Shown here one piece after another: positions 15,911 to 61,726 of a DNA stretch of 64,000 nt (position 1 is its first letter; every line of letters starts with the position of its first letter). The notes below the pieces were generated by a model. It was not told where the DNA came from. It worked only from the letters and a program-made list of their open reading frames with translations, and searched no databases. The position numbers and the translations under genes were made by a program. Source of the stretch: Eledone cirrhosa. Its lineage: Eukaryota. The stretch spans positions 202,244,001-202,308,000 of the forward strand of contig OZ024743.1 of assembly GCA_964016885.1 (NCBI GenBank), given 5' to 3'.

Positions 15911-16160
15911 ATATATATATATATATATATATATATATATATATATTTCGTTTCTGAATTTGTTTAGCAAGATTCTTTATCTGAAATCGTGTGTTGAAAC
16001 CGAAATTGTTATACTTTGGGAGGGTCATGTTGCCAATAAGAAACACACGCACCAGTTGCTTTCACTTCAATTTATTATATATTTATAAATTTATAAGTTT
16101 AAAAATTTATAAATTTCTGGTTGGTTGGTTGGTTCCACAACCAGGTAGTTGTTTATATAT

Positions 16161-16205
16161 AGTCATAGTTCTTTCGTCACACACTCTGTGACCTCTTCAG
16201 TGAGT
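16161..16205 (-). ncRNA. Minimal hammerhead ribozyme in the PLE 3' repeat (mirror at 18230-18274, +)
   Basis: actca-CTGAAGA-ggtcacagagtgtgtgac-GAAA-gaac-TA-tgact. Confidence 0.65.
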
Positions 16206-16404
16206 GGGGATTCCTTTCTTAGTTTCTGTGCCTCTCCTTTGTTCTGTCCTATGCCATTTGTTTCTGTGTGTGTGTTGTGTGCTCAGTCTCCGCATGCGCC
16301 ACATCCGGGTGTCTGTGTGTGTTTATGTTCATTTATTTATTTGTTTATTTACATGTTACTGGTTGGTTGTTTGTTCTATATGTGTGTGTGTTTTCAATTT
16401 GTCC

Positions 16405-17074
16405 TTAATTGTAAGTTGTGATGTTGCTGTTCCACTCATATTTTCTATTTAATTTTGGTTGTAATTCTTTTATGTTTATTGCCTCTGTAATTTGTCTAAA
16501 CATTGCGTCTTTTCTGTGTGTAGATTCTATTTTTATTTCTATGTTCTCTAATTTACCCTTGTGTTCTATTTTTGCATGTTGGTAGAGTACAGATGATTCT
16601 TTATTATCTTGAAGGTCTCGCCAGTGTTCATTTATCCGTTCCCCTACACTACGAGCTGTCTCACCTATGTACACTATATTTTTGTCTCTACATTGTCCTT
16701 CAGTACATCTTATGCTATACACTACATTTCTAGTTTTACAGTTAATATGGGGGCTTATTTTACAGGTTATACATTTCTTATCTATACATGAGGGTCTTTG
16801 AAAAGGGTATGTCTTGCTAATAAGTGTTTTTACGGAGGTACCTAGTCTTTCTACTATCTTCATATTGTGTTTATGTTTATTTAGGGCCCTTCTAAATTTG
16901 TAAGCTAATTCACCTCTAGGGGTTGTATCGATGAACATTACACTCTGGTATTTATTGCTAGCATACCATGAGTTTATTCTATTAGCCTTTTTTCTAGTTC
17001 TTTCTATTCTATTCCAAAATTTCAAAATTTGCTCCTATACAAGGGGCAGGTCCCATTTATGTCATTATTTACCA
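16405..17074 (-). pseudogene. Inverted copy of the PLE GIY-YIG region
   Basis: 206-aa ORF nearly identical to 17409-18029. Confidence 0.85.
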
Positions 17075-18029
17075 CAAAAAACATTATTCACAACAAAAAA
17101 CAAATCCTCCATTCCCATTATGCCAAACCCATGACTTCCAAACATCTGATCCACCGAAACTCGGCCATTTCGGACCATACCAAAATCAACATACTGATTG
17201 CGGATTTGGTACGGGTGATGAGAAATGTGTCCCGCATGTGCAACCCCGAAGAACTAGAGAGACACATACAACACTTCATCCACTGTATGCAGTTCTCTGG
17301 CTACAATCAGAGAGATAAAATCAGAGTGTATAGAGGAGCCAGAACCAAATGGGAAAAAATGGTAAATAATGACATAAATGGGACCTGCCCCTTGTATAGG
17401 AGCAAATTTTGAAATTTTGGAATAGAATAGAAAGAACTAGGAAGAAGGCTAATAGAATAAACTCATGGTATGCTAGCAATAAATACCAGAGTGTAATGTT
17501 CATCGATACAACCCCTAGAGGTGAATTAGCTTACAAATTTAGAAGGGCCCTAAATAAACATAAACTCAATATTAAGATAGTAGAAAGACCAGGTACCTCC
17601 GTAAAACCACTTATTAGCAAGACATACCCTTTTCAAAGACCCTCATGTATAGATAAGAAATGTATAACCTGTAAAATAAGCCCCCATATTAACTGTAAAA
17701 CTAGAAATGTAGTGTATAGCATAAGATGTACTGAAGGACAATGTAGAGACAAAAATATAGTGTACATAGGTGAGACAGCTCGTAGTGTAGGGGAACGGAT
17801 AAATGAACACTGGCGAGACCTTCAAGATAATAAAGAATCATCTGTACTCTACCAACATGCTAAGATAGAACACAAGGGTAAATTAGAGAACATAGAAATA
17901 AAAATAGAATCTACACACAGAAAAGACGCAATGTTTAGACAAATTACAGAGGCAATAAATATAAAAGAATTACAACCAAAATTAAATAGAAAATATGAGT
18001 GGAACAGCAACATCACAACTTACAATTAA
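17075..18029 (+). pseudogene. PLE ORF C-terminus (RT thumb region + GIY-YIG endonuclease), frameshifted
   Basis: HYAKPMTS..RVMRNVS..MQFSGY; CIDKKCITC..NCKTRNVVYSIRC..YIGETARSVGERINEH..RQITEAINI..LN; 8-bp aaattttg duplication at ~17404-17419. Confidence 0.85.
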
Positions 18030-59004: not shown

Positions 59005-60744
59005 TTATTGTTCATTTAGCTTGGGTTTGAATTTATCAATAAAATTCTTTTCTTTGATTTTTCTCTTGATTTCACTTGGGCTGTGTAATTTGTAGAATGG
59101 GAATATTATAAATATTCCCTGACCACATGTTGCCAGGTGGCCGCTTAGGGGTATCTGACGGACATTTGGGTCTCTGATTTGTTGACGGTGTACCCGTGAA
59201 CGTTCCGATAGTGCATTTCCAGTTTGACCGACATATAGTTCTTCACAATTCGGGCATTTAATGCAGTAAATTAGATTTCTGCTTTTGCAGTTCATATTTG
59301 CATTTGGGAATATTTTTCCAGTTTTTGTGTTCATATATTGACCGGCGTGTATGGATTGACATGTGCCGCATCGATTATCATTGCATTTAGCTACAGTGAA
59401 TGATTGGTCTTTGTTGTTAAGGTCAAACTTTGCTTTTGTTAGCAATTGCTTCAAATTTTTTGGCTGTCTTTTACTAAGAGTCAAAGATCGATCTGTGATT
59501 AAGCCTTTTAATTCATTACTTTGAGCAATGATCGGTAGGTTTGCTTTGGCAGTGTTGAATATATTCTGGTGACATGGGTTGTGTGTCATTATAAATGGTA
59601 TAACCAGTTCTTGGTTTCTTCTTCCTTGGGTTGTTCTAAGTTGTTGTATAGGTATTTTTATAGCCCGCTGTATGCCATTTTCTATAAGTAGAGATGGGTA
59701 TTTTTGTTTGAGCAAAAATTCTCTTAGTTCTGTTAGGCGTTTGTACCTGGTATTCGTATTTTCTACAATGGTACAAATTCTTCTGGCTAGGCAGTATGGG
59801 ATGTTGCGTTTTGTATGAGGTGGATGGCACGACATAAAATTCAGATATTGATGGGTGTCTGTGTGTTTATAATATATATCCGTGGTAATGGTGGTGTCGT
59901 TTTTGATTATCATTATATCTAGGAATGGTAATTTGGTCCTACTCATCTCGTTTGTGAATTGGAGAGATGGGTGTAGGTTATTCAGGAGGATATTGAACTC
60001 ATCCAGAGTATCTAGAGATTCTGTCCAGATGATGAAACAGTCGTCAAGGTATCTCTTCCAAGATTTTTCAATGTTCTTTCTAAAGTCAGTACTATATTTG
60101 TGCTCTATTTCTTGGTAGAGTTGTTGTTCTAAGTATCCCATTACAGAGTTCGCATAAACGGGAGCAAACTTCGTTAGCATCGCTGTGCCTCTAATTTCGA
60201 TGTAATTCTTTCCATTGAAGAAGAAAGTGTTGTTTTCCAGAATAAGTTTAACTGCGTCTAATATAAATGGCGCTGTGAATCTAATGGGAATCACTTCTCT
60301 ATGTTTTTCCACCCAGTATTTAACCGCCTTTATTCCTAAACCATGTGTAATGTTGGTGTAAAGGCTTACCACATCAAAACTGAGTAGAAGTGAATTCGTT
60401 TCCGTGGTTTTGGGAAGATGGGACAGGAAGTCGATATCATCCCGGATGAAACTGGGTATGTGAATACATAGTGGTTTCAAAATAATGTCAACAAAATTGC
60501 TTAGACGGTGAGTGGGGCATGTTGGACCAGCTATAATAGGTCTAAGTTTTAAGTCATTTGGGTGTAATAATTTAATGTACTCTCTGTTTTGTTCTCTTAC
60601 TGCCAGTTGTATTTCTTTTGACTTGTGAACTTTCGGTAGGCCATACAGGTTGCTGGGTTTCGGCTCAAAATTGTTGATGTAGTCTCTTTCCTTATCAGTA
60701 AATGAGTTGTGGTATTTTGAAGCCAGGTTGTTGATCTTCTTCAT
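59005..60744 (-). CDS. PLE reverse transcriptase + C-terminal GIY-YIG endonuclease (5'-truncated, open frame)
   Basis: LYGLPKVHK, LRPII, SFDVVSLYTNI, GTAMLTKFAP (usual G replaced by L), RYLDD, PFLD, CNDNRCGTC, NLIY..C..C..YVGQTG..R..H..E..LN. Confidence 0.9.
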   Translation of the reverse strand: MKKINNLASKYHNSFTDKERDYINNFEPKPSNLYGLPKVHKSKEIQLAVREQNREYIKLLHPNDLKLRPIIAGPTCPTHRLSNFVDIILKPLCIHIPSFIRDDIDFLSHLPKTTETNSLLLSFDVVSLYTNITHGLGIKAVKYWVEKHREVIPIRFTAPFILDAVKLILENNTFFFNGKNYIEIRGTAMLTKFAPVYANSVMGYLEQQLYQEIEHKYSTDFRKNIEKSWKRYLDDCFIIWTESLDTLDEFNILLNNLHPSLQFTNEMSRTKLPFLDIMIIKNDTTITTDIYYKHTDTHQYLNFMSCHPPHTKRNIPYCLARRICTIVENTNTRYKRLTELREFLLKQKYPSLLIENGIQRAIKIPIQQLRTTQGRRNQELVIPFIMTHNPCHQNIFNTAKANLPIIAQSNELKGLITDRSLTLSKRQPKNLKQLLTKAKFDLNNKDQSFTVAKCNDNRCGTCQSIHAGQYMNTKTGKIFPNANMNCKSRNLIYCIKCPNCEELYVGQTGNALSERSRVHRQQIRDPNVRQIPLSGHLATCGQGIFIIFPFYKLHSPSEIKRKIKEKNFIDKFKPKLNEQ

Positions 60745-61229
60745 GATGTTATAATATTCCCATTCTACAAATTACACAGCCCAAGTGAAATCAAGAGAAA
60801 AATCAAAGAAAAGAATTTTATTGATAAATTCAAACCCAAGCTAAATGAACAATAATAACGCCTAGGGGTATTACTTCTACTACCACTATGACCACGACCA
60901 CTAACAACAACAACAACAACAATAATAATAATAATAAAAGTGATGTTGATGGTTATGATTAATAGAAAATGCTATTTTCATCATTTCAAAAAGCAAAACA
61001 ATTGATACGTTGGGTATGACTATTGGACGTTAGCATGCTCAACCAGCCGTGACGCTTAAACCAATCAGCTGTAGTAATTCAGTGAAACTACACACTGATT
61101 GGTCGAAATACAGTTTACAGGGCTTTGCATTCTGGAGCCACTTTTCTCTGTATAAAATGTATAAAAGGTAGTAAATTTACCCATCTCATTACAGTTGAAA
61201 ATTGCAAACTCGACTGTCACCACATATCA

Positions 61230-61268
61230 TGAACCTGAAGATTGCGAAAGCATGAAAGTACTTGTTCA
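61230..61268 (+). ncRNA. Minimal hammerhead ribozyme (mirror at 58592-58630, -)
   Basis: tgaac-CTGAAGA-ttgc gaaa gcat-GAAA-gtac-TT-gttca. Confidence 0.75.
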
Positions 61269-61726
61269 ATTAACACTTAGAATTTAATATTCTATCATAC
61301 TATTTCATTATAATACCATATTATATATATTTTAAAGGATTGTAAATAAAACGAGTAAATCAGACAAAGTTGGAATTCCTCTTATTAATATAATCTTCTA
61401 TACACAATCATACACACCCGTGTATATTTACCTCTCGCTCTCTCTCTCTCTCTCTCTCTCTCTCTCTCTCTCTCTCTCTCTATATATATATATATATATA
61501 TATATATATATATATATATATATATATATATGCCTTCATCAGACAAAATACAATATATAACAGTTTTACAAATAAGCTTTGACGTACCCTTTTAAAATGC
61601 AACCATTATTTTTGGAAGCCATCTGGATAGTGAATTGTTTATATTATTTTAATAAGTCTTAATGTTAAGGACAATTAGAAAAAGACGGAGAGAAAGAAAA
61701 AAGACGGAGAGAGAGAAAAAAGAAAT

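What the first reader, a model, noticed from the sequence alone, without database searches (positions are those of the whole stretch)
15947..61432. Reproducible arm asymmetry suggests double-ended priming at a palindromic (TA)n break
Seen: in the three large fold-backs (15947-18430, 46696-48156, 58471-61432) the arm with more 5' sequence stops early at an AT microhomology (aacaat|at, cttta|ta, attaat|at). The arm with less 5' sequence carries a 40-60-nt longer 3' tail. For the first two, that tail is element sequence because it recurs at 56785 and 45985. In 46696-48156 the spacer orientation is inferred from composition. Simple snap-back of one cDNA cannot give a second arm extending beyond the first arm's priming point. 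Inference: both ends of a cut (TA)n present the same primer, two cDNAs are primed (one terminal, one internal), and they are joined head-to-head.
Basis: partly seen in the sequence, partly recalled or inferred. Interest (0 to 1): 0.75.

Follow-up and report, generated by a model that had tools for sequence, protein, structure and literature searches.

The report
Twin-primed Penelope fold-backs, no arm rule
These mirror-image insertions are Penelope-like jumping genes that almost always carry a short extra tail on one arm only, but either arm can be the longer one, so they were likely made by copying the element's RNA twice, once from each cut DNA strand, and not by one copy folding back on itself.

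Summary
The three fold-backs are real insertions of three different Penelope-like families (RT plus C-terminal GIY-YIG) in (TA)n, and all three tails are element sequence. The direction claimed in the title does not hold. Among 138 resolved fold-backs, the tailed arm was longer at its 5' end in 48, shorter in 40 and within 10 nt in 50. The window's 3 of 3 fits chance.

What is reproducible is one tail per insertion: 38 of 43, 40 of 40 and 36 of 38 pairs. Both ends are fixed internal sites with AT microhomology; the long end is not the RNA terminus, because tandem copies read through it. A tail on one end only is already published.

The mechanism survives better than the title. Snap-back cannot give the 40 cases with a longer tail-less arm, and both arms often stop about 30 nt downstream of a TATA box. 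Two primings on sense RNA, joined head to head, fit best (inferred); one RNA versus two is open. This scan reached similar readings on other DNA of this genome.

The parts
15947..16004 (-). Family A tail, 58 nt; encodes the ORF N-terminus of the next tandem unit; ends at the long (L) site, an AT microhomology with (TA)n
   Evidence: 11,168 exact matches across the S site into the tail, including read-through junctions
16005..17074 (-). FB1 left arm, tailed, 5'-shorter (1070 nt): GIY-YIG end of the ORF and 3' region
17075..17085 (.). FB1 junction filler, about 11 nt, resembling a short copy of the adjacent sequence
   Evidence: the templated origin is inferred
17086..18430 (+). FB1 right arm, tail-less, 5'-longer (1345 nt), ends at the short (S) site
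   Evidence: 12,330 exact S ends followed by TA
18231..18273 (+). Hammerhead-like motif, family A (mirror copy 16162-16204 on the - strand)
   Evidence: own motif scan; no hammerhead among the 150 Rfam rows shown of 165
46696..46756 (-). Family B tail, 61 nt, ends at an internal TATATA just before the ORF of the next unit
46757..47314 (-). FB2 left arm, tailed, 5'-shorter (558 nt)
   Evidence: L061
47313..48156 (+). FB2 right arm, tail-less, 5'-longer (844 nt); 2-nt overlap at the junction; spacer is sense-strand family sequence
48043..48080 (+). Hammerhead-like motif, family B (mirror copy 46833-46870 on the - strand)
58471..60750 (-). FB3 left arm, tail-less, 5'-longer (2280 nt); carries most of the 588-aa RT + GIY-YIG frame 59005-60771
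60749..61389 (+). FB3 right arm, tailed, 5'-shorter (641 nt); 2-nt overlap at the junction; holds a TATAAA box near 61161 and the predicted RNA start near 61193
   Evidence: the RNA start is inferred
61231..61267 (+). Hammerhead-like motif, family C (mirror copy 58593-58629 on the - strand)
61390..61432 (+). Family C tail (43 nt here; in other copies it runs on through TATC units to an internal TATATA about 55-60 nt from S)
   Evidence: 2,163 exact matches including read-through junctions
45729..46051 (.). Second, small family B fold-back with the tail on the right arm only
56787..57005 (-). Diverged (about 81%) single tailed arm related to family A

Best explanation
The fold-backs are single insertions of endonuclease-bearing Penelope-like retrotransposons, likely made when the element's enzyme nicks both strands of a (TA)n tract and uses both 3' ends as primers on sense RNA, one at a fixed short site and the other at a fixed long site 55-62 nt downstream. 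Shown: two fixed ends per family, each an AT microhomology inside sequence that continues into the next tandem unit; one long and one short end per insertion; no link between the tail and the 5' length; arms from the same lineage. Inferred: each cDNA runs independently until it stalls or reaches an RNA 5' end (the predicted start about 30 nt after the TATA box, or less often the predicted hammerhead cut). The two cDNA 3' ends are then joined by short-homology end joining and prime each other's second strand. The strict long+short pairing implies that one complex fixes both primers, most simply a dimer on one RNA with the trailing RT displacing the leading cDNA (about 55% given twin priming). 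Two RNAs held asymmetrically remain possible.
For: One tail per insertion: 38 of 43 pairs in A, 40 of 40 in B, 36 of 38 in C, against about half if each end chose freely (p = 3e-7 for A at the 10-kb cut-off, 39 of 45; 9e-13 for B). Six of the seven exceptions are read-through tandem junctions or two insertions split by a TA run; L162 is a true double-tailed case. Direction 48:40:50. 5' ends pile up 29-31 nt after TATAAA: B 41 of 118 ends at -140 to -159, C 55 of 113 at -190 to -199, in single arms as well as fold-backs, which points to a sense template. Equal-length arms outside all hot spots: 11 of 86 against 3.0 expected (p = 1e-4). 19 of 57 near-symmetric junctions leave 0-2 unpaired nt, too tight for an intramolecular primer loop, and several carry short duplications. 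Arms differ at 35 of 837 lineage-informative sites in A (37% between loci) and 24 of 562 in C (29%); the B subfamily marker agrees in 40 of 40 pairs. In vitro, the anole enzyme nicks and extends both strands, starts at two internal RNA sites that bound the tail, and is predicted to be a dimer (PMC11167929).
Against: All evidence is from fixed genomic copies; no intermediate, empty site or RNA end was seen. Snap-back from a long-primed cDNA could account for the 48 + 50 tailed-longer and equal cases, and equal arms at arbitrary positions are also what snap-back predicts. [quoted passage not shown] The partner arm was the closest relative in only 17 of 31, 7 of 28 and 19 of 50 cases, and in B the arms differed at 50 of 176 informative sites (43% between loci), so a shared RNA molecule is not shown; gene conversion could also make arms alike. 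The hot spot in family A is weak (11 of 137 ends at -110 to -119) and lies about 41-45 nt from the TATA box.
Confidence: 0.65

Rival explanations
1. Mixed route: twin priming makes the tail-less-longer class, while snap-back of a long-primed cDNA (second arm copied back to the AT-rich short site and joined to the other target end) makes many of the equal and tailed-longer cases.
For: Equal arms outside hot spots are enriched, 11 of 86. Arm lengths are correlated in B and C (rho 0.71 and 0.47). Some arm pairs are nearly identical with shared private changes (L320: 1 difference in 1626 nt; L170: 0 in 581).
Against: It needs two routes that use the same two sites. There is no excess of tailed-longer cases (48 vs 40). 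Junctions with 0-2 unpaired nt are common (19 of 57).
Confidence: 0.15
2. A hairpin intermediate is made first by self-priming on an antisense transcript, and the endonuclease then resolves it, leaving the tail on one end (proposed in PMC3846280; tail from EN-mediated resolution in PMC8557442).
For: It explains palindromic junctions, same-lineage arms and a one-sided tail; it is the published reading.
Against: The two ends of a hairpin differ chemically, so the tail and the longer arm should be linked in one direction; they are not. 5' ends pile up about 30 nt downstream of a sense TATA box. The tail borders match RT start sites in vitro.
Confidence: 0.12
3. Pure snap-back of one cDNA makes all the fold-backs.
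For: It accounts for the 48 tailed-longer and 50 equal cases and for arm similarity.
Against: 40 of the 88 unequal fold-backs have the tail-less arm longer, 31 of them by more than 100 nt. A cDNA primed at the short site holds no template for the tail.
Confidence: 0.04
4. One reading: terminal priming gives the short arm and internal priming gives the long arm.
For: 3 of 3 in the window.
Against: 48 vs 40 genome-wide and 37 vs 32 in the position-ordered sample. The long site is internal too.
Confidence: 0.02
5. Short ends are random later deletions, or the fold-backs are assembly artefacts.
For: Some hairpins have collapsed after insertion (L182).
Against: Thousands of exact ends at one base (12,330; 2,879; 1,547). 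Arms differ by 0.4-2%. Contigs of two other runs show TA joined at both sites (one run may be the assembly's own sample).
Confidence: 0.02

Closest known systems
Complex insertions of EN+ Penelope-like elements (Craig et al. 2021, PMC8557442; passages and the Hydra section read)
   Same: [quoted passage not shown]
   Different: Tails here are 55-62 nt, not 30-40. The passages read give no counts, do not ask which arm is longer, and ascribe the tail to EN-mediated resolution; they call the formation of inverted structures an open task.
Poseidon element of the green anole in vitro (Frangieh et al. 2024, PMC11167929; main text parts 1-2 of 4 read, supplements not seen)
   Same: Two internal RT start sites bound the tail; both strands are nicked and extended; dimer predicted; start sites near the 5' part of the ORF.
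   Different: There the RNA start site has no homology with the cut DNA, and the start site did not differ between strands. Here both sites match the (TA)n primer, and the two ends are almost always one long and one short. The text read does not model the inverted product.
Adineta vaga Pen families (Arkhipova et al. 2013, PMC3846280; passages and Discussion read)
   Same: Head-to-head inverted pLTRs, junction palindromes, a tail on one of the inverted pLTRs that extends the ORF start.
   Different: Explained there by self-priming on an antisense template; target duplications are visible there but not in (TA)n.
L1 twin priming (Ostertag and Kazazian 2001; only the citation was seen; content recalled)
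   Same: Both target strands prime on the RNA and the cDNAs are joined head to head.
   Different: Recalled: in L1 the second primer starts at a variable upstream site, giving an inversion with little overlap in a minority of insertions. Here both primers start at fixed sites about 60 nt apart, the arms duplicate each other, and fold-backs are the majority product (for example 21 of 25 resolved A long ends, with a few false calls in that screen).

Membership tests
EN+ Penelope-like elements | RT with a C-terminal GIY-YIG endonuclease in one ORF | tested here: met
   Pfam GIY-YIG in C (E 2.8e-6) and A (E 2.4e-4, just under the curated cut-off); RT and EN read in one frame in A (L178, 731 aa), B (L348, 768 aa) and C (L311, 775 aa). 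A single full-length ORF was not seen: these copies carry frame breaks upstream.
EN+ Penelope-like elements | Partial tandems forming pLTRs | tested here: met
   Units of 4.06, 4.68 and 4.20 kb with read-through junctions.
EN+ Penelope-like elements | Inverted 5'-truncated copy and a tail at one end | tested here: met
EN+ Penelope-like elements | Hammerhead motif in the pLTR | tested here: met
   Core and stem I found by own motif scan in all three; no Rfam hammerhead among the 150 rows shown of 165; cleavage not tested.
Neptune clade (families B, C) | CX2-5CxxC linker before the EN, CCHH motif in the EN, DKG motif | tested here: met
   Read by eye from the translations: CX4CxxC linker, CxxC inside the GIY-YIG core with two later His, DKG; motifs as given in PMC8557442.
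Neptune clade (families B, C) | Placement in the RT phylogeny | not tested
   No reference PLE set was fetched.
Hydra clade (family A) | CCHH absent, linker CxCX5C, DKT, element under 3 kb | tested here: not met
   A has two Cys in the core and two His, a CX4CxxC linker, DKS and a 4.06-kb unit. Its clade is left open.
Naiad/Chlamys | N-terminal endonuclease, no hammerhead | tested here: not met
   The EN is C-terminal and hammerhead-like motifs are present.
L1-type twin priming | Second primer starts upstream of the first cDNA, with little overlap between segments (recalled) | tested here: not met
   The arms overlap almost fully from fixed 3' sites. It works like twin priming but is not the L1 pattern.
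Snap-back (fold-back) synthesis | The primed, tailed arm is never the 5'-shorter one | tested here: not met
   40 of 88 unequal cases break the rule.

The most novel reading that the evidence does not exclude
The default insertion reaction of (TA)n-targeting Penelope-like elements is obligate twin priming on a single RNA. A dimeric RT-endonuclease loads the two nicked target strands onto two AUAU sites about 60 nt apart, copies the same RNA twice by strand displacement, and the two cDNAs anneal head to head and prime each other's second strand. This one reaction would explain the tail, the inverted pLTR and the solo-pLTR hairpins.
Probability: 0.35. Interest if true: 0.8.

Novelty: new member of a known kind. 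Interest (0 to 1): 0.5.

Why it matters
How Penelope-like elements build their inverted ends and one-sided tail is named as an open problem in PMC8557442, and the published suggestion is antisense self-priming. The counts here set two constraints that any model must meet: nearly every insertion has one long and one short end, and the tail is unlinked to the 5' length. They favour two primings on sense RNA and give exact sites to mutate in the existing in vitro system.

Tried and rejected
1. The directional rule: rejected.
2. A difference in TA-run length beside short and long ends: none (p = 0.12, 0.50, 0.70; 56, 36 and 30 pairs).
3. Rfam scan for hammerheads: only miRNA-type matches below their cut-offs and one VrrA match among the 150 rows shown of 165.
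4. RNA evidence for the start site: no RNA holder listed.
5. Empty orthologous sites: not examined; the long TA runs and repeated flanks made short contigs unpromising, so the second read-laying run was left unused.
6. 'Partner arm is always the nearest relative' as proof of one RNA: not met.
7. Minimum-energy folds around the S and L sites showed no structure common to the three families; the small hairpin proposed by earlier notes was not tested further.
8. A cap-derived extra base at the junctions: not tested.
9. The single-versus-fold-back screen has some false fold-back calls from TA matches and its output was cut, so it is used only qualitatively.
10. Six paper searches showed no paper that counts long+short pairing or arm direction, or that models PLE inversions as twin priming. 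[quoted passage not shown]
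Full report
Setting. The window lies in a 3.0-Gb genome rich in (TA)n (G000:C4:202244001-202308000). A masked self-comparison finds the three large inverted repeats at the stated places and many smaller ones.

The observation in the window. FB1 has a left arm of 1070 nt with a 58-nt tail and a right arm of 1345 nt without one, joined by about 11 nt of filler. 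FB2 has a left arm of 558 nt with a 61-nt tail and a right arm of 844 nt. FB3 has a left arm of 2280 nt and a right arm of 641 nt with the tail. The arms match at 1050 of 1070, 551 of 553 and 638 of 641 positions. The FB2 spacer is sense-strand family sequence, as other copies show, and the FB3 tail recurs in other copies.

What the elements are. They are three different autonomous families. [quoted passage not shown] Each has a hammerhead-like motif near its end (own motif scan, not Rfam). B and C show the Neptune motifs, read by eye. A fails the Hydra features and its clade is open. In tandem copies the sequence runs through both end sites into the next unit. In A the tail encodes the ORF's N-terminal residues; in B and C it ends just before the ORF. 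Both the short site (S) and the long site (L) are natural AT-rich matches to (TA)n, so neither is an RNA terminus by necessity.

One tail per insertion. Exact patterns sharing a common prefix give 12,330 S and 11,168 L matches for A, 2,879 and 4,529 for B, and 1,547 and 2,163 for C. L counts include read-through junctions and all counts miss mutated ends. Each search lists its first 100 places on contig C1. I paired the places in the range common to both lists (100 S and 85 L for A, 61 and 100 for B, 71 and 100 for C). Head-to-head pairs within 6 kb were long+short in 38 of 43 (A), 40 of 40 (B) and 36 of 38 (C, outermost ends of clusters), against about half under free choice. Of the seven exceptions, four involve read-through junctions (L151, L167, L315, L343), two are separate insertions split by a TA run (L176, L182), and one is truly double-tailed (L162).

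No directional rule. I aligned 174 head-to-head pairs to one real copy per family. 36 were dropped: 21 for a junction gap over 60 nt and 15 for an end that was unknown, read-through or not long+short. Of the remaining 138, the tailed arm was longer by more than 10 nt in 48, shorter in 40 and equal in 50 (p = 0.46). With differences over 100 nt the split was 29 to 31. The subset taken in chromosome order gave 37, 32 and 46. Three pairs of rows are near-duplicates (L185, L350, L175/L177), which does not change the result. Under an even split, three fold-backs agree in direction one time in four.

What this does to the mechanisms. Snap-back of a cDNA primed at L predicts that the tailed arm is never the shorter one; 40 of 88 unequal cases break this. 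A cDNA primed at S holds no template for the tail. A hairpin made first on antisense RNA and then resolved (PMC3846280, Discussion) should tie the tail to one arm, because a hairpin's two ends differ; no tie is seen. Two primers, each elongated independently, predict exactly this lack of a tie. This reasoning is inference.

A sense template. 5' ends pile up at -140 to -159 in B (41 of 118 ends within 700 nt) and -190 to -199 in C (55 of 113), with modes 29 and 31 nt downstream of a TATAAA box at a CAG motif. Single arms stop there too. Contig depth in run X1 rises from about 18,700 to 357,000 across the C site (this run may be the assembly's own sample). A smaller pile in C (11 ends at -120 to -129) matches the predicted hammerhead cut at -124. 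In A the signal is weak. The start sites are predicted, and no RNA data were available.

One RNA or two. The arms come from one lineage: they differ at 35 of 837 informative sites in A (37% between loci) and 24 of 562 in C (29%). B is weak (50 of 176, against 43%), though its subfamily marker agrees in 40 of 40 pairs. The partner is not reliably the nearest copy (17 of 31, 7 of 28, 19 of 50). Equal arms outside all hot spots are enriched (11 of 86, 3.0 expected), as expected if both RTs ran off one broken RNA, but also under snap-back. 19 of 57 near-symmetric junctions have 0-2 unpaired bases and several carry short duplications, which suits joining of two separate ends. A single RNA explains all three length classes with one route, so I favour it, at about 55% given twin priming.

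Comparison with what is known. [quoted passage not shown] Two internal RT start sites, nicking and extension of both strands, and a predicted dimer are in PMC11167929. L1 twin priming is the nearest named mechanism (recalled; citation only). Six searches found no paper that counts the pairing or the arm direction; older subscription papers and supplements were not seen. After I had formed my reading, the scan's own notes showed eight similar, mostly unreviewed readings on other DNA of this genome; they are not independent support.

Verdict. The feature is real and the elements are new members of a known class. The title's asymmetry is a small-sample effect. Interest 0.5.

Noticed in passing
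window 6640-6954, 12870-13060, 15719-15907, 34625-35652, 35753-36061, 40892-41121, 62630-62963: Further fold-backs of other families, each with TA at one end and non-TA sequence continuing on the other arm, as a one-sided tail would give. The tail of 12870/15719/40892 recurs among those three.
   Followed up: partly
family C, 120-129 nt upstream of S; family B, 76-78 nt upstream of S: Secondary pile-up of 5' ends at the predicted hammerhead cut (C: 11 ends, predicted -124; B: weak, predicted -78). This hints that self-cleaved RNA is used as a template in vivo, which the anole in vitro work did not see.
   Followed up: partly
family A, window 15947-16012 (- strand) and L189: In most copies both end sites share the same 7-nt AT-rich motif ending in CG; the window's tailed arm has a point change in it.
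   Followed up: no
family A, 250-270 nt upstream of S: An unexplained cluster of 5' ends (19 ends in bins 250-279) with no TATA box identified.
   Followed up: no
L182:340-1200: A fold-back whose tailed arm has collapsed to its last dozen bases; some apparent single arms may be collapsed hairpins.
   Followed up: no
L175 and L177; L315 and L343; L185; L350: Fold-backs with matching junctions at two places, from segmental or tandem duplication or from re-transposition of a whole fold-back.
   Followed up: no
G000:C1:97368649-97381245: Four family C end sites spaced about 4.19 kb apart on one strand, a head-to-tail array.
   Followed up: no
L189, L178, L163 (family A ORF): A long Asn/Thr/His-rich low-complexity stretch upstream of the RT core, reminiscent of the Asn-rich inserts described in Adineta elements.
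   Followed up: no
window 5103-6083 (+): 326-aa frame resembling a PIF1-type helicase of Helitrons (label recalled, not searched).
   Followed up: no
window 43049-44752 (+): 567-aa open frame whose end resembles a class C receptor exon (label recalled, not searched).
   Followed up: no
window 7633-7827, 18554-18696, 20837-22609, 24647-25576, 30300-30734, 36723-38667, 41491-41685, 52209-52300: A roughly 190-nt SINE-like repeat, dispersed and in short tandem runs.
   Followed up: no
window 54390-55181 and 57143-57534: Remnants of further GIY-YIG-like elements by eye (68% alike to each other); the 54390 frame had no Pfam hit.
   Followed up: no
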